Assembly: GCA_905178155.1 (NCBI GenBank)
Contig: CAJINV010000009.1
Coordinates: 248,001-312,000 of the forward strand
Direction: 5' to 3'
Source: Amoebophrya sp. A120
Taxonomy: Eukaryota; Protista; Dinoflagellata
DNA: 64,000 nt
The position numbers were made by a program, and so were the translations under genes. The first letter of the stretch is position 1, and each line of letters begins with the position of its first letter. Below the pieces are notes generated by a model. The model made no database searches. It was not told the origin of the DNA and was given only the letters and a program-made list of their open reading frames with translations. This document shows positions 1,838-16,948 of the stretch, one piece after another.

Positions 1838-4800
1838 ATGCTCTTCGCGCTTCTCGCCTCTGAGTGCTGGAAGGACACCTGGGGTCCGCATAATTTTGCT
1901 CGCTGTTGCTATGTGTTGAAGCGTGGATCTCAAACTCCCTACTCTGTGACGTTTCCTAGTTTGTCATGCTTGTTGCAGTGTTTGTGTTTCAATATCAAGC
2001 AGTTCGAGAGCAGTTTCTGGCTCACCTTGGTAGCTATTACAGTACCGAAGAAGCTTGCGCCATATTGTGTTTCAATATCAATTTCATGTTCATCAGACCT
2101 GCATATGATAATAAATTATCAGCCGTTGGAGAGCACCTGCACCATGGACAAAAATACTGTGAGAAGGAAGGAGTTTGATAATTTTCACCTTTAGTTTACC
2201 CTGGACCAGAGCGTGGCGAGTCAAATCGGGTGTTGGGACCACCTGGGCGATGATGCCGATGCCATCGATATCCTGTTCAAAAACGTCCCCACCCTATCGT
2301 CAAGTTGGGAAATCTGCAAGACAAACCAGCAAGCGTTGGGCGTTGCGCATGACAAGTTCTTTGGCCTCGTAGTGTAATCCTGTTTGGAAAGTTCAGCAGC
2401 GCCACAGATCTAGCACATCATGGCGATTGGAGCATGACAAATTTTCGCAGTACGACTAGAAAAAGGCTCTCCCGGGGCTCCGCATGAGAAACATTTTGAG
2501 CATGCAGATTTGCATTACAGGGGGGGGCGTTTTATTTACATAGGATAATCGACAAGTTCTACAACCGATGCTGTTTGAACCACCCAGTTGACGCCAACGA
2601 GAAGGCCTCGTCGGACGAACAGTTGATTCTGTTAGAAGATCCGCGAGGTGCTGAAGAAAATGATGGCGACGAAGCGAAGAATATTCACAATGCAGATTTA
2701 CCGGGAGATCGCGAGCAGCAGGCTGGAAGTGGAACTAGAAGCACGGCAGAGAAAAATAAAGTGCGAGAAACGCCGGGATTGTCCATAGAGCTGCGAGACG
2801 TGGTAACGTACCCGCTGGTCCTGTCCCGGCAAGAGACGTTGGCTTTGCTTCTCGCCGACCCCGACCAAGCAACTTGTGGCTGTCGGGCGCAGGATGCCTG
2901 GAGCTACTACGACGAGGCGACTGGCGAAGAAGATGCTGCCGCCGGCGCCTTCGGGATATTGCAAGACTTACGGGGTGAGAAGCGAAATCCCATTCCGCCA
3001 GAGGAGGATCACGAGGATCGAAGCCCTTCGGGTTCGCAGCTGGCCCGTCCGGCCGTTCAAGACGACCGGTTTTTCTGCAAACTGCATCGCCGACTGTCGA
3101 TGACTGAGGGAATTCCCTCCGAGATGGTCTTATGGGGAGGAACTCTGTAGACTTTTTAGTTTTTTCTGCCTGCGCAACAACATCTGAGCTGTATCAATAT
3201 TGCAGTTGCAGTCGCACTCGCACCTCGGTTAACTTACATACTTATAAGCATACGGCCTATCTATGTAGTCCTAGTCGCTGCAACATTCGTTGATCTCTAT
3301 CTCCAATGGCGATGGCCGCAGGAGCTCTGTACTTGTGATGTGCCTTCAGATAGATACATACGTGTACGAAACGGTACTAGTTGCAGGATTCAGTACAGAG
3401 TTTTTCACTGGAAAATTACCGGGAACTTTTCGAGGAGATTAGCATTGCAGAAAAAGCCGACTGTCCCTTCGGTTTCCTCGCCCTGATTCTCGCAATCGCC
3501 CAAACGAGAGCGTTTTACTTCAAAAATCCCCTGGACTCCCCGGCTTTTGTCTATGCCGAGAACGCCCTTTTCGTTTTGCTCATGAAAGTCAAGTTTTTGT
3601 ACAACGGGACTGGCAGGAAAACAAAAAAGAAGAAGAAGAAGTCGACGCCACCCTCGTCACCCAAAGGGGGGCCGCAAAAGGCCGTCGATAATACACTTCA
3701 CCGACGAGGAGTACCAGATGGGCAAATTTTTCTGAAGCCGCTGCTTGAATCGGGATGGGACTTCTTCCACTTCATCGACCTGATGCGGCAGCACTACATC
3801 CAAAACATCGGCATTCAGCCAGGTTATCTGGATTGGGAATGCATGGACGTGGACGTCCACCGTGAGGAATTCATGTTCCAGAACTTCGCCGCCTCGAACC
3901 AGGAGATGATGATGAGCCTGCACGCGAACAGAGATATCAACGCCGACAAAGCAACTGCTAATAATCCGGAAGAAGCAGAAGGGGACGACGGGATATCAGC
4001 GGGGAAAAGAGAATTTAGAAGTACTACACCTCCAAAAACAGTAGTACCTGCAAGTAGTGTACAACAAGTACTAGAAGCTGCCGCGACATCAACTGCTTTC
4101 CGTTCCGCACGAGGAGAAACCACGACCGCGGGAGCAGCTGCTACGGACGGAGCCACATCGCAAAAATCCTCAACTCTGCCTGTCAGCTTGGAAAAGACCT
4201 TTCTTTTGCCTCCGCAGCAGGATGTTTTCTTCGTTCGAAACCAACTGAGTTTTTTGTTGCGGGAGGTCGCCGGTGGCGTACTGAAAAATGGAGTTCTCGT
4301 GAGGACAGCAGGTGAGGCTGGAGCTGCTGTAGATGCTGTAGACGAGGAAAACACTTCAAGTGTCTTCAAGCTCTCTCTACTTTCAACTTCCAGCCTATAT
4401 GACGCAGTGCAGACTGTCACCGAGCCGCCACGCAGCCTGTGGAACATTTGGAAAGACTTCACACACATATCCCCGGAACAGGTACCACATCGCGGTTTAG
4501 AATGGGGAAAGCGAATGTTCGACCTGAAGAACGAGAAAAACGTGCGAAAAAACTACAACAAATTGCCGAAAAGCGGCGGAGAACAGCTGCAGGTCTCCAT
4601 TCTAACTAGTTTAGTCGCGGAGCAGCAAAAGACCGAGGGCATGCTCGTCAGAAAGGAAGCAGGTGGCGAGGAGCAACGGGCGACACAGCGCGTCGAGTCT
4701 TCAAGAGATGAACATCAAGAAGTTGCTGCACAAAGTGCAACTAGAACACGATCGGAGCTGCAGCACGAAGCAGAACAGAACCAGCCTAAGGCATGCTATT

Positions 4801-7800
4801 TCATTCACGCGTATGTGATGTTTCAGATGTTTCAGAACCTCGAGGCTACAGCGGACGTCGGGCTAAACGCGTTGGCCATGTTTCACCTTGGTGAGAACTA
4901 CCTAACGGAGCAACTTCTGTTCACAAAAACAACGGCGCATTTGCTCTCGCTAAAACACGCGAAAAATGACCAAGACCTACAAGCAGGAGAAGAAACCGAA
5001 ACCGAAAGTAAGTCGGTGTTTCAGTCCCGTCCCAATGCTCTGGTCGTGGAATTGCGGAAAGGGGTGGCAGTGACATTACATAGTTCACCCTCTACTTCTG
5101 ATTCTGAAGACGATAGTGAAGACTCTGCTGCTGCTGTTGGGTCGCCACTGCTCCATCTGGAGGCTGTTGGTGACACCTCTGTGCTGGCACCGTTGGAAGA
5201 TATTTTGTCGGATGGCACGAGGACACGAAAAGCTGCAACCAGTGCGAGTAGATCCCTGCGCCTGCGCGGGTTTCCGGTATCCTGTGTAAAAACGTCCCCA
5301 CCCCATAGTCAAGATGGGGATTTTGCAACACAAACCTAGGAGTTTTGGGAGTCGCGTATGACAAGTTGCACTCCGTAGTGTAGTGCAGGTTAGCAAGTGC
5401 AGCCGCATCACAGATCCATCTGCTCATCCTGTTCTCAGCATCACAAATTCCAAAACACGATTGGAAATGTCTACCATGGGTATGCGCGTCGCAACTGTCT
5501 TTGTCATTGCAAATCTGCATGACAACTCTTTTCACCCCCTCCCCGGGGGGAATATAAATTCGGGCGCACTGACAAAAAGAGGCGGAACACAGCGAGGAGA
5601 GTTGCCTCGCTGTCGTTACCGACCCAAGAAAGATCCGTATCGTAGACGTACGCACACTGTGCAAAAGACCCGGCAGCTTTTTTTTTCGGCTGTCCCCCAC
5701 TTATTAGATTGTCGGCAAAAGTTTAGGGATAGCGTTACTCCATTGCCGCCTTCGCGATATTTTTTTTAGCGGACCCCGCACGTACGATATCCCTGATGCG
5801 TTTCCCGCTTGGCATTAAACATCCCTGACTCAAACACATATACACCCCTCGGTATGGCACACCTCATCTGCCTAGTCGCCCCTAGGCAGGTGCAGGGATT
5901 TTCTGTGTGGGCTTTTTGTGCTTAATTATTCCAACAGGGGCTGAGTCTTTTTTTTCTGCCTTGCCAGCAGAGTTGTACATGTGGGGGGGAATAGACGGAA
6001 GTGGCGCGAGATCTTGGTGAAGGAGCAGGCGACAAGAGCGGAAATTGTACAAATCAAAAAAAAATATGTAAAGATGGCGCGCACGCGCTCTGCTTAACTG
6101 TGTGAAAGGTGTCGGCCCTGTTTGACCTGCTGCGGCAGGCAGGTGAATTCGTAGAACTGCTTCACATGTTAAGTAACGTCCACTGGCCTCCTAAAATAGT
6201 GATGAATTTATTTGCGAAAAAACCCTCCTGCTATTCCTCCCACAGCACAGCACGTCCGCCGCGGCTTCCGGCTATAGACGTTAGCTATGGCAGAGTTTGC
6301 CGAGTCGCAAAAATATTGCGAGTTGCAAAATATTTTGCGTTGCAAAGTAGTTGGGCGATGAAAGTTGGGAGCTGGGCGATGGGAGTTGGAAGTGGGCGCC
6401 GGGAGTTGGAAGCTGAGCGATGGGGGTGGTGGCGAGTTGGGTGATGGGATTTGGGCGGTGGGCGGGGAGCGATTTCGCAAATCGCGAAAGTTTTGGAAAG
6501 TTTGAAAATTGCGAGAAAAGTTTCGGCGTGGGCGATTTTCCCCCCCGTCGCAAAGTTTTAACTCACACCGCTCAGCAATAGGAGTTATATCTTGGGGATT
6601 TTCTATGCCTATGCGTGTGTCCGGTCCGAGCTCGAAACAAGGGCTCAGGGGTGGCCCCCCTGTAAGCATGCGGGTTTAGGGTTTACATTTGTATGGACCA
6701 ATGCGGCACATCCATCGACTTTCCTGGCAGTGTCGACCTGCTGTACACGGCGCAACCCCCGCGAATCACGAGCGGGGTGCGCATCTTTCGCAGCCGCCGC
6801 GCGTGAGGCTAACTATCGGGCTTCGGCAAAAGCGCACTCAGTCATGATCTTCTACTTGCCGGCCATCTTCTTGCCGCCGCCCCTGCCGCTAACTTTCGGA
6901 TACCACTCCGGCTTCCAAGCACGGCGTGGACCTGATGTTATCTCGATGTCCACCCGCTGGCGCGGCTGCCCCCGTGGATGTGGTGCAAGACCTTCCCATG
7001 TTTTGCAACACGCACGTGGCGGCAGAAGCATCAGCGCATAAAGATGTCAAGATGATAGAAGGTCCGCACCAGCGGACCAGCACGGGTAACAGCCGCCCCG
7101 CGCAACGGATGGATCGTGGGTTCAGCGGTCCCGTCCCCCCGTTTTTGTTTATCTCTAGTTTTTTAGAAATTCTACTATCTTCGAGCACAGACATCTTATG
7201 AATTCCGCTGGAGGCATCGGCGGTAGCTGCACCAATCGCCCGGCGTATTTTGAAAAACAAAAGTCCCACGGCAGTATGGGTCATAACTTGTTCGATTCAG
7301 GGCGCGCGGCTACTAAATGCCACCGGTGGGGTTCTAGATGTAGCGCCGTTTCGTCATGGGCTCGATATTCGACGGGAGCGAGAAAGTGAGGAGCTGGCTG
7401 GTCGCGGCGCACTTGGCACGAGTATTTCCGTGACATGATGGCCGGGACGGTCGTTGCTGATTCCGCTCGAGATTTTTCAACATTGAAGTTGCGAAAACTC
7501 TTTTGCATGACCTTCGCGTAGTACCACCGAGATACGAACCGTCATAGGCTTGCGAATTCTTTTTCAAAAAAACTTTTGCTACAGTTTCGCGCGGCGGCTT
7601 CCCGTGTGTAGGTTTATTCTCGACCATATCACCTCCCCGCTATTCGTCCGACAGCATAGCACGTCCGCCGCGGCTTCCGGCTGTAGACGTTAACTATATC
7701 GTGGGGATTTTCTATGCGTGTGTCCGGTCCGAGCTCGAAACAAGGGTTCAGGGGTGACCCCCCGGTAGGCATGCGGGTTTAGGGTTTACATTTGTATGGA

Positions 7801-10377
7801 CCAATGCGGCACATCCATCGACTTTCCTGACAGTGTCGACCTGCTGTGCACGGCGTAACCCCCGCGAATCACGAGCGGAGTGCGCACATCCGAATCCCGA
7901 ATCCGAAAAACAGTGTAGGGCTTTAGGGTTTTGAATATTTTGATTTTGTATCTCCCACTGCTGCATGAACCTGCTGCAAGAACTTGTCATGCAAAACAAC
8001 CTTCGGGTTGTTCCCGCGCTTCAGGAGTAGTCCTGTTGCGTGAGGGCGGCAGAAGATGAAAGATGTTGTTGATTTAGGGGGTTGAAAATGTTTGTACATG
8101 TGTGATGCAAAAGACAAAGAAATTTCGCGCGTGGGAGCGCATTATTAAGCACAACGGGCGGGTACCGTTCCCGCCGTCACACAATCATGGAAAATTGAAA
8201 ATTGAAAAAAACAGCGTGGGGCCCAATGAAAAAAAAAAATCTGCATGACAACTGTGGAGTGGCCGGGAGATGATGGTGATGGCACTTTGGTGTCCGCCTG
8301 AGCCACCCGCCCTGCGTCTCAAGCCATCTGCGGCCATGGGACAATGGGGGGGCAAAGTGTTTCGCATTTTGTTTAGCATGACAACTCTGGAGTGGGGACG
8401 TTTTTCCTCAGGATATCCTTTGCCAGATATTCTACGGAAGCTGCTGTACACCTCGATCAATATCAACGGCATTCTCGCTATGGAAGCGCCAGGATTGAAA
8501 TCGTGAAAGTTGAAATAGTTTCTTGTGATGCGTAAAATGCAACCCACAAAATGCCTGTCTTGCAGAGTAGGCAAAGGAGGCAGATTGTAAGCCTGTTGAG
8601 GGGTAGAAGTAGAGCTGCTAAAGTAGCATGACAAAAGGCGTCTTCCTTACTGAAACAGCATTACAAACAGGATCTCGGTTCTACCCAAATTTGTCATGCG
8701 CCACTTGAAAACTAGGCGCCAACTGGTATCCGTTTTTTGCATTACAAATTATTTCAACTTTGTCGATTTCAATCCTGACACTCCCATACTCGCGCAACTT
8801 TCCCAGTGCCGGCGGGTCTGGGTGAGCGACGGGGGGCGGAAGGAACCCGGGTACAGCAAGCCGAGCAACCATTTGGTGCAGCAGGCGCGCCCACCAAGGT
8901 ACTTCCGCATGCAGGTGTTTCCGCACCGCGAGCTCGCTTCCAGTTACATCCGGTACAAAAAAGAGCCGTTTTGCAACATGGATCCCTTTCGGGAGATTCT
9001 GCAAACCGTTTCCGCGGACGAGCCGCTGCGGATTTCGGAGGGCGGCGCGCACTTGGGCGACTGCGCGCTCCTGGCCGCGAGCCTACTGCCCACCGCCCGC
9101 ATCACGGCGATCGAACCGCTGCCGGACGCGTCCTTTCTGTTGCAGAATTCCGTGCTTTTGAACGAGCGGCTGGACTTTCCGAATCGCTTGCACGTGGTGA
9201 AGGCGGCCTTGGACGACGGCACGGTGCGGAAGCTGCAGCTCACCCACTTGCCCGGCCGCTCGGCGTCCGCATCGGCAAACGACGGGAATTATGTCTGGAA
9301 TTGCAACAAAAACACGCCGGAGCACCTGTGCCGGAGGCACGACGTCGAGGTCTTGAAACTGGATGAGGTGATTGATTTCGCGCACGTGGTGAAGCTTTCT
9401 ATCCAGGGCAACGAGATCGCGGCCTTGCGGGGGAGCAGCGAGCTCATGCAGCGGTTTGACGTCTGCAGCTGGTTTTTCTACTTCGGCAAGGTGAACTTGG
9501 GCACCAGGGTGGTGGTGAAAGTGGATACGACTACATCTGGTAATTATTCGCAGTTGACCACGTCGGCGGAATCGTTGAAAGCAGACGGTAATGCAGCGGA
9601 GAAGGAGGACGGCCTTGCGGAGGAGAGACAAAAGCGGTTGAATCTGACGGTGCACTATCCTTTCCCAACCTGGTTCATGTCCTCGCGGAGCGATGTTGAA
9701 CTACACCAAGAAAGTAGTACAAACTTCGAAGAAGCACCTGCCAAGGAGTCGTTCGTACAATTGCGAGATTGTGCCACCACGGCGCAAAACGTCAAGAACA
9801 AGGCAGAGAACCCCGAGAACACCTCCCAGGAAAACGCAAGCTACGCGCGCTGCGTCTCGGTAACCGCTTCGGAGGAACTGTGGAGGTTGTTGGCAACGAT
9901 GGACCTGTACTACGTCAATTACGCGAAGAAGTTGGTTACCGCGAGGCGGATCGAGAACGCGTTTGACTTGCACTTGACCATGCAGGCGAACTTGAACCTC
10001 CTCGACGTGGACGAGGACGCGTTTTGGAAGGAGTACCTGATTATCAAATGTAAAAATGTCTGGGTCTGGAAACTTGTAATGCTGGGTGGCGTCTCATGAT
10101 GAGGCTACAAATGCTGGCTCAGCATGACAAGTTTCTGAGCTCCTAGGTGTTGCCTATTCTGCATGACAAACTGCGCTTCTGCATCACAGAAGCGCGTAGC
10201 TCTTGGGTAACGTGCGTGACAGATTTAAGAGTCATGCCAGACAAGCATGACAAACATGAATTCTTCCAGACCCAGACATTTTTACACTTGATACTGATCG
10301 CCACACAGAAGACCGGCCTGAACAAGCGATGCGTCAAGTTCGTCACCCATGTGTGGAGGCAGTTTCGCTTGATGTAA
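1838..10377 (+). CDS. Large (~1332 aa) probably secreted protein with N-terminal CW...CC motifs and a C-terminal FkbM-family SAM methyltransferase domain; predicted exons 1838-1912, 2195-2268, 2553-3126, 3387-5277, 8421-8478, 8794-10041, 10299-10377
   Basis: FkbM motifs in ORF 8696-10099: ISEGGAHLG, AIEP, HVVKAAL, LKLDEV, VVKLSIQGNE. Exon lengths sum to 3999 nt with no internal stop when two GT-AG introns (1913-2194, 3127-3386) and four TIR elements plus one TSD each are removed. Exact junctions within the TSDs are ambiguous. Confidence 0.7.
2269..2547. mobile_element. Introner/MITE-like non-canonical intron, family B (279 bp), TSD ATCGA
   Basis: Left end TATCCTGTTCAAAAACGTCCCC; right end GGGGCGTTTTATTTACATAGGATA (inverted). 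ATCGA at 2264-2268 and 2548-2552. Removal gives in-frame ...DAIDKFYNRCC... Confidence 0.9.
6224..6783 (+). repeat. LTR-like ~255-bp direct repeat, copy 1 (interrupted by element 6286-6580)
   Basis: Aligns colinearly with 7632-7886 (e.g. CACGTCCGCCGCGGCTTCCGG, GTCCGAGCTCGAAACAAGGG, GGACCAATGCGGCACATCCATCGACTTTCCTG). Confidence 0.9.
6286..6580. mobile_element. TAT...ATA element (295 bp) inserted in repeat copy 1; internal AGTTGGG-like tandem repeats
   Basis: Ends TATGGCAGAG / CTCAGCAATA (8/10 inverted). Absent from repeat copy 2, which reads GACGTTAACTATATC. Copy 1 has element plus 5 extra nt (TTAGC...GGAGT). Confidence 0.8.
7632..7886 (+). repeat. LTR-like direct repeat, copy 2 (empty site); contains GGGTTTAGGGTTT
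   Basis: Direct alignment to 6224-6285 plus 6586-6783. Confidence 0.9.
8479..8788. mobile_element. Introner/non-canonical intron, family C (310 bp), TSD CTCGC
   Basis: ~55-bp TIR: TATGGAAGCGCCAGGATTGAAATCGTGAAAGTTGAAATA / TATTTCAACTTTGTCGATTTCAATCCTGACACTCCCATA. CTCGC at 8474-8478 and 8789-8793. In-frame NGILA|QLSQCRR after removal. Confidence 0.92.
10042..10293. mobile_element. Introner/non-canonical intron, family A (252 bp), TSD CTGAT
   Basis: 30-bp near-perfect TIR TATCAAATGTAAAAATGTCTGGGTCTGGAA / TTCCAGACCCAGACATTTTTACACTTGATA. CTGAT at 10037-10041 and 10294-10298. Removal gives KEYLIATQKTGL...FRLM*. Confidence 0.95.
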
Positions 10378-11365
10378 AAACCGGATTCCACGACCACGCT
10401 GGTGGGGAGGTGGGGTACTAAGTAGGAAGATGAAGCTCCGCTTGGCTCTGTGGGCTGCTCTAGAAGCATCACAGAGTCAGCTGCGACCGGGTAGTGCAAG
10501 CTGGCGTTCAAAAACTAGAACATATGACAGTGTTGAGCAAGAATCCTTGGTGGCCAATGGACTAGTCGGCCCCTGCACGTAAAGGTGCATGCACACATAG
10601 TGAAACAGTGACATACAGTAAGGGAAGGCGTTCCAGTCTTGTAAAGTAGCTTCTTGCAAGAGGAGCAAGAGCATCGCAGTCGCTGTTTGCAGCTATCCGT
10701 CTACTGCTCGTTTAAAACGTGTCACAAGGACGCGAAAGCGTTTCGAGCAGAAAGGTTCGTCAGAAACGGAGGCACGAGGACAGCAGTTTTGCTTTTGCAG
10801 TCTAAATGGAGTGTGGGAAGTTTTTGAAAAAGAGGCGTGTATATTCGGGTACAGAACGAGGATCCGGACGTAAGGAATTGATCCATCGTATTCCTTTTCG
10901 CATGAATTTGGTGCTGCTGTACAATCAGAAGGTCCCGCTTTTCGCACCACCGCATTGTCGTCTCATTCGTGTATATCTATCACCCCCGCGCAGATCAGGT
11001 GTCGTTTGGACATTCTTAACGAAATTGTCGAATAGATTCGTCAAGTTGCAGCGCTGCGTCGCACCACGAGGCAATCACGAAGTAAGTACTTTAATGCAGT
11101 ACGCACTCGCACAGGCACTACATTAATACTCACAGCTAGAACATGATCACTTTCACACTGAGTAACTAGGTCGTGAGTTGTTGTCTGAATGCTTGTTTTC
11201 TCGGCAGATACAGCTATGAGCATGAAGTCAAATGACTAAGACATTGACTTCTTTCTTCGTGTAGTTTCGTTCCAATGGTCGCCTCATCAAAGGCCTTAGT
11301 ACCAGCAGAATATTTGATCGCACAACTGCAAAGTTGAGAATCAACCTACCAAACAGAATACCAGA

Positions 11366-14300
11366 ATGCCGCTGGCCGGGTCCTATTTTGATTTTGATCA
11401 CAATGTGATCCCCACCACAAGCCGGGCGAAGGAGCAGACAGCTTCATGCTGTGGCAGTGAAAGCGCAACTGCAACGAGCATACAAGAGGAAGGGGGGTGG
11501 TACAGTGTATTGTCTTCTCCTTTGCCGTCCTGTAGTACCACCAGCACCGTAGACGGAAGTAAGAAGTCCGATGGAGCTGCAAATGATGACACCACGACCG
11601 ACGAAGAAGTCTTGGAGGTCACCGTGACGCGGGAAGAGCTGGCTACGCTGCAATTGCGAATTGTGCACGAAGGTGTTGCCTTGGATCCCAAGCAGGAATG
11701 GGACGATGGTCAGGGAAAGGCGGGGTGCTTCGAGAACCGCTCTTGCGTAGTAGTTCTCCGCGGGTTTAATATTCGAAATAGCGATTTTCTGTTCGACCCT
11801 GCTGGTCCCGAAACACTCGACCCTCTCGAGCACGAAGATGAAAAATCACCTGACCCGCATCAACTACGACTGCGGAGGAAGAATCTGCTGCTCCGAGCCG
11901 TGTACGATACCGAGTTTCAAAACTCTCTTGTTGACAACCCGAGTGGACTCCGAGTTGGCGACGAAATTCTGGGTTACAGGCGACTGTCTGCGGCCGTGAC
12001 AGACGGCGAAAGTGAAAATGAGAAAATCGCAGGCACCAGCGGCGTGCAGAAGCCCAGCGTCGAATGGCACACTGTCGCCGCGGACTTTCGCAACTTAGAC
12101 TTTCTTGGTATGGGCCCCAGTTGTATGTTTCTGAAACAAAACACAAACAAGTCTGGTGAAAATAGACCACGTAGAAGTAGCGAACCTGAGCGAGAGGAAA
12201 GACCACTATTCTTATCGGATGGCCAGACTGGAAGCGATGAGGACGTGGAGTTTTCATGGTCCACATCGGCCACAAAGGCCTGCTTCCTGAACACGTATTT
12301 TGTCAAGCGGATGCTAAGCCTTTGTGATGATGAACGCGTAAGTGGAATAACGAATTTGCCGTCCTCCTCGTGCGGACGTGCTGTCGTATTGAAAGTACGT
12401 CGTGCAGCCGGTGGGTTTGCCTGCGTTTCTTCTGTGGCTGAACAGAACAAGAGGCGTGAGGCGGAGGAGAAACACGACGCGCGCTTTCTGCGAGGTTTAC
12501 GGGAGAAAGTGCTACCAGGAATGAACGAGCCGCTGAACCAAAGCAGTAGAGCTAGAGTCCCACAGTTTCAGCGGCGGGGTAATAAAACGCAACCTTGGCC
12601 GCGGCGGGGGAGGCAAGTTCATCAACATAAACGAAATTTGCAAAAAAGTGGAGTACTGATTGAGCCAGAAAGTAGTCGCGGCCCGCTGCCAGGACCACAA
12701 TCAGCACGAGGCATCCGATCATGTAGCTCGTCCTTCCTATCAAACGCAAAAGTTCTCAAAGATGTTGGCAACTTGATTGATTACGCCACTCAAAGAAGGT
12801 ACTTTTTCACGTTTTTCGGCAGTCGCAGTCACGGTGTACACTTTCGCGACTCTGACGTTGATGTGTGCCTCTACCTGCACGACATCAGATCAGATAAGCA
12901 GGCGCGGCACTACCTGCACACTCTCGGACTAGGCTTGACGTACCTGCAGGAAGCACATGTCGACTGGCTCATCGCTCGCATCCGGAAGCGGCGGGCGTTA
13001 GGCAGAGTGAGAAAGCAAAGGCTGAAGGGAAGAGACAAGCGGAAGCGAGGACACAAGGACACACCGCAAGAATTGCCGGAGCGTGTGGAAAGAAGCAGGG
13101 CTACTGGTGACGATGAGGAAAGCAAAGGCTTTAGTACTACCGGCAGAAAGGGGGAAAGTGAAGAAAATCTTAGCGCGCAGGCAGCAGAGTGGCGGTCCCG
13201 ATCACGGTTTTCACCCACTGAAGAGAATTCAAGAGATTTTCCCTCCACCGCTGCACTGCCAGACAGAACAAGTCTGAAGTATGCGAAAGACGTGCACTCC
13301 GTGGATCTTGAGCCTGTGGAAGCGAAAGGCACACTGGAATTTGTGTTCAAAGGCTTCCAGGTGGATCTAACGTACGCGCTGGACCCCGTAGTGCGGATGG
13401 GAATGCGGGAACAACCGCCTGCGACCTTGATAGAAAAGAGCACTGGAGGCGCAGCGATTGCCGGAGGAGGCCGTGTCGAGGTGAAAGTGGAAAAGAAACA
13501 CAAAAGGGAGACATCGGCCGGAGAAGTACAACCGTCAGCATCACGGTGGAACCAGAAAAGCCCTTGTTTCCGTTCCTGGTTACAAGGCGCTCATTTTCTA
13601 GACAGCTTGCTTCAAAATCCCGGCTTTGGTGCGCTTGTCGTTGCCGTCGAAGAGAAAAACGGGATGAGAGTAGGTGACCAAGAAAGTGCTATTGGTAAAA
13701 ATGATGACATCGTGCAAGAGCAATCGGAAGGGAAGTTCCCAGATCCAGTTTCATGCAAATCGACCCTACTGACACGAGCACGACAGGAGAACAAGCTCCG
13801 GATGGTTTTCCAAAAGATCCTGCACTTCGTCGCGGCCGATAACAAGTGTGTGGATGGGTCGCGGGCTTTTGGGAAAAGGTTTGACAGTGCACAGGCTGAC
13901 TTATTGGCGAACGCTCCCACAAGTACAACTCCCTCGTCCTCCTGCAACATCCGTTATGTTGCGACCGCGGTGCTGCACTGGGCGAAAATCATGAAGTTGA
14001 AAAAGGAGCACTCAAATACGGAGAAACGACTGAAGTCAATCCATCTAGTCGCACTCTTTCTTTGCTTCGTTCGCGGAGGACTTCTTGTTTCTCGACAGCA
14101 TTATATCACCTCCAAGCGGCAAGAACCGCAACGCTGGAACTCCTCGCTTCTCCTGGGCCGCTTTTTTCACTGGGTCGCCACTTTCCCTTTCGAGAGCTAC
14201 AGTCTACGGCCTTTGGCACAGGAAAACAGCAGAGTAGTTGTCAAGCGGCCACGTTGGGCAAGGTTTACGAGGACCGGTCCTTCGGCGAACGAAACTACAG

Positions 14301-16948
14301 AACTAGGCCAAAAGTCTCCAAGCATCAATTTATGGGGAGAGCAGCCGGCGATTCGTCGCTGTTTCGCGGCGGAATCACAATACGCCAATCTGTGGTCTTC
14401 ATCTCCACCTCCATCGTCGGTGTGTGGGAATAGCGAAGCTTCTCTTCCCGCCGTTTTGGGAAATTCCATTCTGAAAGAGGTTGCAAAAGAAGTAAAGACG
14501 CCAGGACCACCTGGCTCTACGCTTCCTTCGCTTTATTCAGTAATCTCTTCGAAGCCCGCGCAGGCGCACTACCACTACTTTGGATGGGAGTACAACCCAG
14601 AAGATCCAGATTTGTGTTTGCCGTTTCAGGAGCGAGAGAAAGTTTGGTCCGCTTCGCCTTCTTCCGCATCTACTATTTTCGGAAATCCGCAGATGATCAA
14701 GAAACCAACCACAACTGCTTACCCGATCCATCGACTGCTGGTGGCCCCGATAGAGGGAGATAGAAATGAGACAACTCCGGCGTCACTCCATCCAGAAATC
14801 AAGCGCAAAATCGTACTCCGGAGCCCGGCGTCGGGCGCTTACGTGACACCAGCCGAGGAGGAGCAGAGGTGGCAACCCCGCGACTTGATCCACATCAGAA
14901 GAAGTCCGCAACTTGCAACTACTCCCGAGGAACATGAAATATCGGCCGTAGCAGGAGAGATGAAGACCTCCGAGCCTGAGCCGGATCAACACGAAGACTG
15001 GCGGTACCGGCAAAACATCTGGCAGTACTTCGACAGCGTTTTGGAGGAGGAGTACAAGGAAACGAGCCGTGCCGAATTTGAGGACAAACAGATGGAGCAG
15101 TACGGACAGAAAAAACCCGATCTAACTTTTCATTTGCGCAAAACCAAAATGTGTGGGCGGAACTGCGACAGCGATAATTCCGATAGTGATCATGCGGACC
15201 ACGAACAATCTCCCACGAGCGACTATTTAGTACCGCAAGGTCGTGACGAAGATTCTTCTACTTTTGATTCCGAAGAAGATGCCGCCAGGAGTATTTGGTC
15301 TTCCGAAGATGCTGAGGAATACGAATACTCACACGACGTCAAGAATACCAACGTAAATCCAAACTGCTATGTGTGTCGAACTTTGCGTTGGTCCGACCTG
15401 CCGATCGCCATTGGCTTGCCACAAGGTCGTGCTAGCTCGCGGCGTGAACACCTAGGCGGAATGTTTGGTGCGGAATTATCTCAAGCGTCGGAACTACGTG
15501 ACTCACAGTCACAACAGCCGCAAAGTTGCGCTACGGTCGTTGACCGGTACGAAAATGCTTCGGCTTTGGAGACCGAAGCGTTGATCTTCCAGGACCAGGG
15601 AGTGTCGAATTGTGCGTGCTATCAGTCCCTGAACGAAGTGGAAACGTGGATACTGGATGAAAAGTTCCTGAAAGATTTAAGGAGAAAGGCCTACGCGACT
15701 TTTCTGCTGTGGGACGAGGGACAGAAGGAGAAGTGTCGGATGCGCAGCACGACGAGGGATGTCTGCCCTGTGAAAAATGGCGGAGGAAGAGGTTCTTTGC
15801 TAAAGCACAACAGTACAACTGAGGTACCAGCTATGAATCATGGGTCACTCGCGGCCTTGTTTGAGAAACTAGAAAACTGGGAAAAATCGCCGGTCCCTGG
15901 GTTTTCTTGCGGTCTAAGTGCCGGAAGACGAAGAACCATGCTTGACTCCACCCGAATGTTTAACCGGATAAAAAAAGAGGACGAGAACGGGCAGCCGCTG
16001 TGGAACACAATGTACAGCCAAGACAAGGAGCAATTGCTCAGCGTTCACCACACGTTCATCAAGCACGGGTTTGGCAACGAGGATGGCAAGCCCGGCGACG
16101 CTCAGCCTACAGCTGTGGACGATCTCCGAAGAGGAGAACAGCAAGGGAAGAACAAACGCTCGTCGAACGAGAAAAGCAAAACTCAAGCACGACGACACCG
16201 CCACCGACGACGGAAGCATTGTGTGATGCGGAAGTTGAAGTTTCGTTGTGGAAAGAGGTTGGCAAGAAGAATACGGAGAAAGAAGAAGCGCGATGAGGAA
16301 GAAAGGCCATTTCCGTACTGTGATCAGCTGCTGCGATTGTCTTTGGATGTCGTAGACGATTTTTACGAAACGTATTTCGATCATGATGTGACAAATAGAA
16401 ACAAAAAGCGAAGTAAGGCGAGGAGCAAGACGATTTCATCGATGAACCACCCGATGACAAGTAAAGCAGTTGGAGGAAGTAACAGTGGAACAACTGAAAC
16501 TCCTTTGTCGCGAACAAGCAGCTCAACTTCGACGGCATTGCGAGGCAGCACAAGGAACAGACCAAGTAACTGGATCAAAATCAAAAGATTTCTCCGCCTG
16601 GCGCAGCTGGATCTGCTGCGAGAGTTGGCCGGGGACAATGACGAGAAGCCAGCAAGTCCACGTGGCTCGTCTTCTTCAACAAACGTGAACGAATTCTGCG
16701 ACGACATGACGTATCAAAAGATGAAAGAAGTAGATAGCGCAGCATTCAAAAAAGAGGTCGTGAGGGCGAAGCCGATGAAGGCGAAAACAATACGACAGAA
16801 AGTTGAGGAGCGGATGAATCTCGGCCGTGCACTCCGCCACAGCAGCGCCACCGCTCAGGAAGAGCATGGAATTTGTCAGTCTAGCGCGCTCTTGAAATTT
16901 GCCAAGCGTGGCAAGGAACCCGACCCAGAGCCGAGTCGGGAGAAGTGA
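11366..16948 (+). CDS. Intronless 1860-aa Pol-beta-superfamily nucleotidyltransferase (non-canonical poly(A) polymerase/TUTase-like) with long low-complexity insertions
   Basis: FFGSRSHGVHFRDSDVDVCL (hGS...DhDh), third catalytic Asp in FQVDLTY, helical-domain segments VLHWAK, LKSIHLVALFLCFV and LLGRFFHWVATFPF. Confidence 0.75.
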   Translation: MPLAGSYFDFDHNVIPTTSRAKEQTASCCGSESATATSIQEEGGWYSVLSSPLPSCSTTSTVDGSKKSDGAANDDTTTDEEVLEVTVTREELATLQLRIVHEGVALDPKQEWDDGQGKAGCFENRSCVVVLRGFNIRNSDFLFDPAGPETLDPLEHEDEKSPDPHQLRLRRKNLLLRAVYDTEFQNSLVDNPSGLRVGDEILGYRRLSAAVTDGESENEKIAGTSGVQKPSVEWHTVAADFRNLDFLGMGPSCMFLKQNTNKSGENRPRRSSEPEREERPLFLSDGQTGSDEDVEFSWSTSATKACFLNTYFVKRMLSLCDDERVSGITNLPSSSCGRAVVLKVRRAAGGFACVSSVAEQNKRREAEEKHDARFLRGLREKVLPGMNEPLNQSSRARVPQFQRRGNKTQPWPRRGRQVHQHKRNLQKSGVLIEPESSRGPLPGPQSARGIRSCSSSFLSNAKVLKDVGNLIDYATQRRYFFTFFGSRSHGVHFRDSDVDVCLYLHDIRSDKQARHYLHTLGLGLTYLQEAHVDWLIARIRKRRALGRVRKQRLKGRDKRKRGHKDTPQELPERVERSRATGDDEESKGFSTTGRKGESEENLSAQAAEWRSRSRFSPTEENSRDFPSTAALPDRTSLKYAKDVHSVDLEPVEAKGTLEFVFKGFQVDLTYALDPVVRMGMREQPPATLIEKSTGGAAIAGGGRVEVKVEKKHKRETSAGEVQPSASRWNQKSPCFRSWLQGAHFLDSLLQNPGFGALVVAVEEKNGMRVGDQESAIGKNDDIVQEQSEGKFPDPVSCKSTLLTRARQENKLRMVFQKILHFVAADNKCVDGSRAFGKRFDSAQADLLANAPTSTTPSSSCNIRYVATAVLHWAKIMKLKKEHSNTEKRLKSIHLVALFLCFVRGGLLVSRQHYITSKRQEPQRWNSSLLLGRFFHWVATFPFESYSLRPLAQENSRVVVKRPRWARFTRTGPSANETTELGQKSPSINLWGEQPAIRRCFAAESQYANLWSSSPPPSSVCGNSEASLPAVLGNSILKEVAKEVKTPGPPGSTLPSLYSVISSKPAQAHYHYFGWEYNPEDPDLCLPFQEREKVWSASPSSASTIFGNPQMIKKPTTTAYPIHRLLVAPIEGDRNETTPASLHPEIKRKIVLRSPASGAYVTPAEEEQRWQPRDLIHIRRSPQLATTPEEHEISAVAGEMKTSEPEPDQHEDWRYRQNIWQYFDSVLEEEYKETSRAEFEDKQMEQYGQKKPDLTFHLRKTKMCGRNCDSDNSDSDHADHEQSPTSDYLVPQGRDEDSSTFDSEEDAARSIWSSEDAEEYEYSHDVKNTNVNPNCYVCRTLRWSDLPIAIGLPQGRASSRREHLGGMFGAELSQASELRDSQSQQPQSCATVVDRYENASALETEALIFQDQGVSNCACYQSLNEVETWILDEKFLKDLRRKAYATFLLWDEGQKEKCRMRSTTRDVCPVKNGGGRGSLLKHNSTTEVPAMNHGSLAALFEKLENWEKSPVPGFSCGLSAGRRRTMLDSTRMFNRIKKEDENGQPLWNTMYSQDKEQLLSVHHTFIKHGFGNEDGKPGDAQPTAVDDLRRGEQQGKNKRSSNEKSKTQARRHRHRRRKHCVMRKLKFRCGKRLARRIRRKKKRDEEERPFPYCDQLLRLSLDVVDDFYETYFDHDVTNRNKKRSKARSKTISSMNHPMTSKAVGGSNSGTTETPLSRTSSSTSTALRGSTRNRPSNWIKIKRFLRLAQLDLLRELAGDNDEKPASPRGSSSSTNVNEFCDDMTYQKMKEVDSAAFKKEVVRAKPMKAKTIRQKVEERMNLGRALRHSSATAQEEHGICQSSALLKFAKRGKEPDPEPSREK

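What the first reader, a model, noticed from the sequence alone, without database searches (positions are those of the whole stretch)
5278..8415. 3.1-kb 'Russian-doll' intron that collapses to exactly the 279-bp family-B introner
Seen: 5278-5529 (252 nt, homologous to 2269-2547) plus 8389-8415 (27 nt, right TIR) totals 279 nt, the same length as the sibling in the same gene. The ~2.7-kb insert is bounded by AAATCTGCATGACAACT (5511-5527, 8237-8253) and ends in A11, hallmarks of target-primed retroposition. The flanking exons still join in frame through a 58-nt exon (8421-8478). Inference: TIR-defined introns tolerate >10-fold expansion and act as safe havens for other mobile DNA.
Basis: partly seen in the sequence, partly recalled or inferred. 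Interest (0 to 1): 0.78.

Follow-up and report, generated by a model that had tools for sequence, protein, structure and literature searches.

The report
Nested insertions stretch a hairpin intron
A 279-base intron-forming mobile element in a gene of a likely parasitic dinoflagellate has grown to 3.1 kb through two stacked insertions and is still missing from the message, which suggests that its paired ends, not its length, mark it for removal.

Summary
Largely real, with corrections. The two outer pieces (279 nt) align without gaps at 270/279 and 266/279 to intact introners from a related assembly. One contig of a probable RNA run skips the 3.1 kb, and two homologues run across it. Lengths put the splice at 5276/8420, not 8421.

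There are two insertions: 2.7 kb with a 17-bp duplication, and 113 nt with a 20-bp one. The 2.7-kb insert is a non-coding mosaic of repeats. Its A11 is A8 plus three A's of the duplication, but joints in other contigs fit copies ending at the same A-run. Retroposition is likely (about 0.55), not shown.

A second family member (L002) carries an unrelated 1.1-kb insert with an 18-bp duplication at the overlapping site and no poly(A). 'Safe haven' is untested; a hot spot is hinted (2 of 18 elements).

The introners are published (introns of 40-1000 nt analysed), and kilobase end-paired introns are known in euglenids. This scan earlier noted a 13.6-kb hairpin-bounded intron in another dinoflagellate.

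The parts
3419..5276 (+). Upstream coding exon of the host gene (the start is approximate)
   Evidence: Open frame 3381-5339; tblastn to P0001 at 3411-5078; contigs of run X3 at 3419-3612, 3654-4488, 4464-4797, 4949-5276
5273..5277 (+). Left copy of the introner's 5-nt target duplication; by the inferred junction its first four bases stay in the mRNA
   Evidence: 3/5 identical to 8416-8420; the contig ends at 5276
5278..5529 (+). Left 252 nt of the family-B introner, with the left inverted-repeat arm (5278-5309)
   Evidence: 96.4% to L009 and 95.2% to L005 over 252 nt
5511..5527 (+). Left copy of the 17-bp duplication
   Evidence: Exact repeat with 8237-8253
5528..8236 (+). 2.7-kb non-coding mosaic insert; multi-copy modules around a single-copy core; 5 dispersed TTTAGGG
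   Evidence: Depth and joints in run X1; no Pfam or Rfam match; TTTAGGG 5 here, 0 in the other 61,292 nt of the window
6222..6783 (+). First copy of an internal direct repeat, interrupted by about 297 nt (6289-6585)
   Evidence: 6222-6288 vs 7631-7697 88%; 6586-6783 vs 7695-7886 92%
6733..7456 (.). Single-copy core of the insert
   Evidence: One 724-nt contig, no differences, depth 43.4 against 45 and 48.1 on the flanks; one other contig skips 6787-7411
7631..7886 (+). Second, uninterrupted copy of the internal direct repeat
8212..8239 (+). Likely 3' terminus of the repeat family, with the A-run (8229-8239)
   Evidence: Joints 6216-8212 (2 contigs, side 28) and 6761-8214 (1 contig, side 26) both reach 8239 if counted on this side
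8237..8253 (+). Right copy of the 17-bp duplication
8263..8375 (.). Second insertion, 113 nt, between copies of a 20-bp duplication (8243-8262, 8376-8395); multi-copy in the DNA run; no poly(A)
   Evidence: 15 contigs at 8302 and 13 at 8361; not homologous to the introner interior
8384..8415 (+). Right inverted-repeat arm of the same introner
   Evidence: 8375-8415 is 41/41 identical to L009, the closest match of the left part; predicted duplex with the left arm -41.3 kcal/mol
8416..8420 (+). Right copy of the 5-nt duplication; by the inferred junction only 8420 stays in the mRNA
8420..8478 (+). Small exon (LPDILRKLLYTSININGI); its 3' edge is ambiguous over the 5-nt repeat 8474-8478
   Evidence: 54-nt gap in contig 13 of X3; matches P0001 and P0002
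8479..8788 (+). Next introner (310 nt, another family, perfect 5-nt repeat)
8789..10036 (+). Downstream exon with an FkbM methyltransferase domain
   Evidence: PF05050, E 5.1e-05, above the curated cut-off; contig 13 of X3
2269..2547 (+). Sibling family-B introner in the same gene (279 nt, a more distant subfamily)
   Evidence: 189/285 to the collapsed element; 190/284 to L009

Best explanation
A 279-nt inverted-repeat introner in a protein-coding gene carries two later insertions in its right arm (113 nt and 2.7 kb, each flanked by a 17-20 bp duplication) and the whole 3.1 kb is missing from a spliced transcript, likely because its outer arms still pair, with the large insert likely a non-coding poly(A)-ended repeat copied in by another element's reverse transcriptase. 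Step 1 (shown): the element is a close subfamily member of an abundant introner family. Step 2 (shown): two insertions with long duplications lie 20-46 nt from its right end and leave the outer arm intact. Step 3 (inferred, about 0.55): the 2.7-kb piece entered by target-primed reverse transcription at an A-rich cut, using non-LTR retrotransposon proteins in trans; it was already a patchwork of repeat modules. Step 4 (shown by one contig; exact bases inferred from lengths): the intron 5277-8419 (GT..CT, 3143 nt) is removed, one base outside the left arm and four bases beyond the right arm. Step 5 (predicted): pairing of the arms across 3.1 kb brings the splice sites together.
For: Ungapped 270/279 and 266/279 identity of the collapsed element to L009 and L005. 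Duplications. Contig 13 of run X3 skips 5277-8788 except for 54 nt and also skips the 10042 introner. Homologues P0001 and P0002 carry sequence from both sides in one protein. The minimum-energy fold of 5257-8440 pairs 22 bases of 5278-5301 with 8392-8415. The right arm is the best partner of the left arm in 5313-8800 (-41.9 kcal/mol; the best site elsewhere gives -29.2). For retroposition: the duplication begins with AAA next to an A-run; joints in three other contigs fit a shared end at the last A; non-LTR retrotransposons are reported in Amoebophrya genomes (PMC7789003, passage).
Against: No RT or other Pfam family in 7 insert or junction ORFs. No hammerhead core, no A box and one lone B-box-like match. 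Only A8 lies outside the duplication. The 113-nt insert and the 1.1-kb L002 insert have 18-20 bp duplications without poly(A), so a long duplication at this site does not by itself mean a poly(A) element. The flanks and duplications of other copies could not be read: no genome is held and the contig tables are cut. No displayed DNA contig bridges the insert junctions. Splicing rests on one contig from one run whose RNA status the tool marks as a guess. End pairing is a prediction.
Confidence: 0.57

Rival explanations
1. Same spliced, expanded introner, but the inserts are DNA patches captured during repair of staggered breaks at a fragile site in the right arm. The 2.7-kb piece would be repeat-rich DNA, possibly subtelomere-like, and its A-run a chance point of microhomology.
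For: Three unrelated inserts (2.7 kb, 113 nt, L002 1.1 kb) have 17-20 bp duplications at overlapping positions, and two lack poly(A). The large insert is a mosaic with a single-copy core. TTTAGGG, a telomere motif reported for strain A120 (PMC7789003), occurs 5 times on one strand (4 independent) against 0 in the rest of the window; 0 of 2000 resamples reached 4. The L002 insert ends in repeats that resemble the target's own upstream bases.
Against: Joints in three other contigs fit a shared, defined end at the A-run, as expected of a mobile family rather than a random patch. The TTTAGGG are dispersed, not an array, and I chose the motif after seeing it.
Confidence: 0.25
2. The motif just inside the right arm is a specific target of one or more retroelement endonucleases, so introners are dedicated landing sites.
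For: Both expanded elements among 18 complete family-B copies held carry their inserts at overlapping sites, 29-46 and 34-52 nt from the right end. By my rough estimate (13 positions in about 240) the overlap has a chance near 1 in 20. The core motif GCATGACAA recurs in several introner families.
Against: Only two independent loci. The inserts are unrelated to each other and the duplications are offset by about 6 nt each, unlike a fixed cut. Survival bias is possible, since insertions in the outer arms would be lost. The window was chosen for this very insert.
Confidence: 0.13
3. Assembly chimera: repeats from elsewhere were joined into a normal 279-nt introner.
For: No displayed contig bridges the junctions. 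The only contig at 7511-7687 differs from the window at 11 places.
Against: Clean duplications at both inserts and an ungapped collapse to 279 nt. The core is single-copy at the depth of the flanks. An independent assembly shows the same kind of structure at the same site (L002).
Confidence: 0.05

Closest known systems
Introner elements of Amoebophrya A120 (Farhat et al. 2021, PMC7789003; sections 10, 11, 16 and passages read)
   Same: Inverted-repeat arms starting TAT, seven variable bases, then a run of A; a short direct repeat at the exon borders; non-canonical splice sites; a repeated family.
   Different: 3143 nt. The paper used only introns of 40-1000 bp, and A120 non-canonical introns average 240 nt; the word 'nested' does not occur in its main text. 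The paper calls the splice position relative to the hairpin variable or unknown, whereas the diverged direct repeat here allows it to be inferred.
Euglenid nonconventional introns (review PMC11282704, passages read)
   Same: Ends brought together by inverted repeats, TSD-like borders, lengths from dozens to several thousand nucleotides.
   Different: Different lineage and motifs (CAG/CTG). Here the unexpanded and expanded states of one subfamily can be compared base by base.
Non-autonomous non-LTR retroposed copies (SINE-like or processed sequences; features from my own knowledge)
   Same: Long target duplication starting with A's, 3' A-run, no coding capacity, multi-copy.
   Different: 2.7-kb mosaic with internal repeats and a single-copy core; no Pol III promoter found; the tail is short; the partner LINE is not identified.
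Secondary insertion of transposons into existing introns (filtered out as a known confounder in PMC12130899, passage)
   Same: Mobile DNA nested in an intron.
   Different: The host intron is itself a non-canonical transposon-derived intron whose arms are split by the insert.

Membership tests
Amoebophrya A120-type introner | Inverted repeat joining the intron ends | tested here: met
   32 nt, 88% complementary; paired in the predicted fold
Amoebophrya A120-type introner | Arm begins TAT + 7 nt + at least AAA | tested here: met
   Both arms against the description in PMC7789003 section 11
Amoebophrya A120-type introner | 3-5 nt direct repeat at the borders | tested here: met
   3/5 identical here; 5/5 in L005 and L009
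Amoebophrya A120-type introner | Repeated family | tested here: met
   18 complete copies in the window and 9 loci; very high summed depth in run X1
Amoebophrya A120-type introner | Removed from mRNA at non-canonical sites | tested here: met
   One contig of X3 skips it; the GT..CT ends are inferred from lengths
Amoebophrya A120-type introner | The host is Amoebophrya | tested here: inconclusive
   No call names the organism; inferred from the match of the element anatomy to PMC7789003
Non-LTR retroposed copy (2.7-kb insert) | Long target-site duplication | tested here: met
   17 bp exact
Non-LTR retroposed copy (2.7-kb insert) | 3' poly(A) or simple-repeat tail belonging to the element | tested here: inconclusive
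   A8 outside the duplication; the joint lengths of 3 other contigs fit an end at 8239, but which side was measured is not stated
Non-LTR retroposed copy (2.7-kb insert) | Dispersed copies with their own, different duplications | not testable with these tools
   Multi-copy modules seen; flanks not readable, no genome held
Autonomous LINE or Penelope-like element | Reverse transcriptase / endonuclease ORF | tested here: not met
   No Pfam match at E 0.1 in 7 ORFs; the longest insert ORF is 159 aa
tRNA-type SINE | Internal Pol III A and B boxes | tested here: not met
   No A box; one isolated B-box-like match (recalled patterns); no Rfam match
Retrozyme / Penelope-derived repeat | Hammerhead ribozyme in the direct repeats | tested here: not met
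   No core motif on either strand; no Rfam match at E 1
LTR element / TRIM | Terminal TG..CA repeats and a 4-6 bp duplication | tested here: not met
   The repeats are internal, do not start with TG, and the duplication is 17 bp

The most novel reading that the evidence does not exclude
The sequence just inside the right arm of family-B introners is a preferred cut site for several unrelated mobile sequences. Because the host removes these introns by end pairing regardless of length, the abundant introners form a silent landing pad inside coding genes: a transposon-made intron parasitised in a site-directed way by other elements.
Probability: 0.15. Interest if true: 0.75.

Novelty: new variant of a known kind. 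Interest (0 to 1): 0.47.

Why it matters
How Amoebophrya-type non-canonical introns are recognised is open: U1 was not found and the splice position relative to the hairpin is described as variable or unknown (PMC7789003). This locus is a natural experiment. An introner more than 11 times its normal length, with only its outer arm left at the 3' end, is still removed. Its diverged direct repeat lets one infer the cut register: one base outside the left arm, four bases beyond the right arm. It also shows a size class outside the published 40-1000 bp analysis window, and hints at an insertion hot spot that is easy to test on the public assemblies.

Tried and rejected

RNA runs: no listed holder is on record as RNA. 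Raw-read runs X9 and X10 gave no test: 79 partial reads, chiefly on another introner's arm, and 0 reads. X3 has no cover at 6510-7845, which I do not count as evidence.

The insert's 3' motif had 0 matches in metagenome contigs, viral contigs and the 9 loci. BLAST found no copy of either insert in the rest of the window or in the loci. Rfam: 0. Pfam: 0 for 7 insert or junction ORFs and for 4 L002 insert ORFs.

The idea that 8263-8375 is a diverged introner arm was rejected: best local score 35 against 29-42 for 20 shuffles; 1 of 16 targeted alignments reached z 3.1 and the rest 2.4 or less. The joint 5529-8237 was set aside as probably an ordinary family-B copy matching both duplication copies. 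The T's listed between 6216 and 8212 may be a strand effect; unresolved.

Supplements of PMC12130899: 12 of 14 files were searched for six motifs, with no hit (long cells are cut and one store did not answer). 'Amoebophrya' was not found in file 3. So a listed family matching this insert is not excluded. The supplementary figures of PMC7789003 (S12, S19-S25) were seen as legends only.

Literature searches for nested insertions in introners (0 papers) and for break-repair capture (0 papers) found nothing; two searches listed nothing relevant by title. Earlier-findings look-ups by place, by sequence and by the first word set gave nothing relevant.

Full report
Setting. The window carries short elements with inverted arms that begin TAT and are flanked by 5-nt direct repeats. 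They match the introners described for Amoebophrya A120 (PMC7789003, section 11). No call names the organism, so 'Amoebophrya-like' is my inference. No genome is held. The evidence comes from the window, public runs laid on it, nine related loci and two homologous proteins.

The collapse. 5278-5529 plus 8389-8415 is 279 nt. Against the sibling in the same gene it matches 189 of 285 columns with compensating gaps, so that comparison alone is weak. A pattern scan of metagenome contigs gave 9 loci. Two hold intact 279-nt elements that match the collapsed sequence without a gap at 270/279 (L009) and 266/279 (L005). The last 41 nt of the window's element are identical to L009, so the far right arm belongs to the left part.

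The 17-bp repeat (5511-5527, 8237-8253) is exact, and 0 of 1000 resamples held such a repeat. But removing only that insert leaves 412 nt. A second insert of 113 nt (8263-8375) lies between two 20-bp copies that differ at one base. It is multi-copy in the DNA run (15 and 13 contigs at two positions) and is not a diverged introner arm. The order of the two insertions is not fixed by the sequence. The A11 is A8 plus three A's of the duplication.

One gene, one intron. Homologue P0001 reads GFP-RPDVIRKLIYTSININGLLAQ where the window's exon pieces read GFP, LPDILRKLLYTSININGI and LAQ. P0002 also carries motifs from both sides. In run X3, which the tool only guesses to be RNA, one 1989-nt contig covers 4949-5276, then 54 letters, then 8789-10036 and 10294-10652. 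It skips introns, so it is spliced sequence. Fifty-four is the length of 8420-8473. The two copies of the 5-nt repeat differ at their last two bases, so a left piece ending at 5276 fits only a junction 5276/8420. The intron is then 5277-8419, 3143 nt, GT..CT. This is inferred from lengths: the joint rows of X3 were not among the 15 of 189 shown. Runs X9 and X10 gave no test.

How it may be spliced. In the minimum-energy fold of 5257-8440, 22 bases of 5278-5301 pair with 8392-8415. The right arm is the left arm's best partner in 5313-8800 (-41.9 kcal/mol against -29.2 elsewhere). The inserts landed inside the right arm's inner part and left about 30 outer bases in place. End pairing is a prediction, in line with the hairpin model of PMC7789003, not a result.

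The large insert. It is non-coding by Pfam (0 of 7 ORFs) and Rfam. In run X1, 5528-6216 is multi-copy and 6733-7456 is single-copy at the depth of the flanks. 6222-6783 repeats 7631-7886 at 88-92% with 297 extra bases. Other contigs join 6216 to 8206 or 8212 (3 contigs), 6761 to 8214 (1) and 6786 to 7412 (1). For the joints to 8212 and 8214 the shorter side is 28 and 26 letters, which counted rightwards ends at 8239 both times, the last A. This suggests a repeat family of variable length with a fixed end and an A-tail. With a duplication that starts in A's, that favours target-primed reverse transcription in trans. Non-LTR elements are reported in these genomes. TTTAGGG occurs 5 times in the insert, 0 times in the other 61,292 nt of the window and 4 times in 56,846 nt of the loci; 0 of 2000 resamples reached 4. 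The motif was chosen after inspection and is dispersed, but it keeps a subtelomere-like origin in play.

An independent case. L002 holds a family-B element of 1384 nt with intact arms and a perfect 5-nt repeat. It has a 1.1-kb insert between two copies of an 18-bp sequence that overlaps the window's duplications. The duplications lie 34-52, 29-46 and 20-40 nt from the right end. The L002 insert is unrelated to the window's inserts and has no poly(A); it has (GA)n at one end and a short tandem repeat at the other. Both flanks have an open frame, in what looks like a phosphatase gene (weak Pfam hit below the cut-off); there is no RNA for it. In a thresholded census 2 of 71 elements exceed 1 kb, and 2 of 18 complete family-B copies are expanded (one copy cut by a locus end left out). 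The loci were selected by a family-B pattern and the window by this very insert, so these are not unbiased rates. This case weakens poly(A) retroposition as the general explanation and raises the idea of a hot spot, on two loci only.

Comparison. The element meets the testable features of an A120-type introner. The paper analysed introns of 40-1000 bp only, so this size class lay outside it. Kilobase end-paired introns are described for euglenids (PMC11282704, passage), and secondary insertion into introns is a recognised event (PMC12130899, passage). PMC12621601 (passages) describes end-paired introns in diplonemids; PMC6221363 (passages) added nothing on length. Searches showed no paper on nested insertions in Amoebophrya introners; the library is limited to open papers.

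Verdict. A real, spliced, multiply nested introner: a new variant of a known kind. The structure and the single gene are well supported (about 0.9). The retroposition step is likely but open (about 0.55). 'Safe haven' is untested. Its value is as a natural test of length independence and cut register in an unexplained splicing system.

Noticed in passing
window 2269-2303 and 8381-8415: The sibling introner's left arm is predicted to pair better with the distant right arm (-36.6 kcal/mol) than with its own (-32.1). If pairing alone set the splice sites, skipping of 2269-8415 might occur; no such joint was among the rows shown for X3.
   Followed up: partly
L002 1547-2930: Family-B introner expanded to 1384 nt by an unrelated 1.1-kb insert with an 18-bp duplication at the overlapping site; it lies in the opposite orientation within a probable phosphatase gene.
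   Followed up: yes
window 6289-6585: About 297 nt, multi-copy in run X1, with short palindromes and a degenerate G-rich 21-nt tandem repeat; it interrupts one copy of the internal repeat between two TAT.
   Followed up: partly
window 6923-7070: Weak 150-nt self-complementary stretch (61%) in the single-copy core of the insert.
   Followed up: no
window 7943-8184: A contig of run X3 matches with 11 differences, so another copy of this module is present in the probable RNA run.
   Followed up: no
window 11318-16948: A 1876-aa open frame without interruption, next to an introner-rich gene.
   Followed up: no
L001-L009 versus the window: The census found 65 elements in 56.8 kb of loci but 6 in the 64-kb window. 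The loci were selected for an introner, so the contrast may be selection or real clustering by gene.
   Followed up: no
L004 3257-3529 and L006 3501-3780: Family-B copies whose two arms are nearly alike, so that the left-arm pattern also matches the element read from the other end.
   Followed up: no
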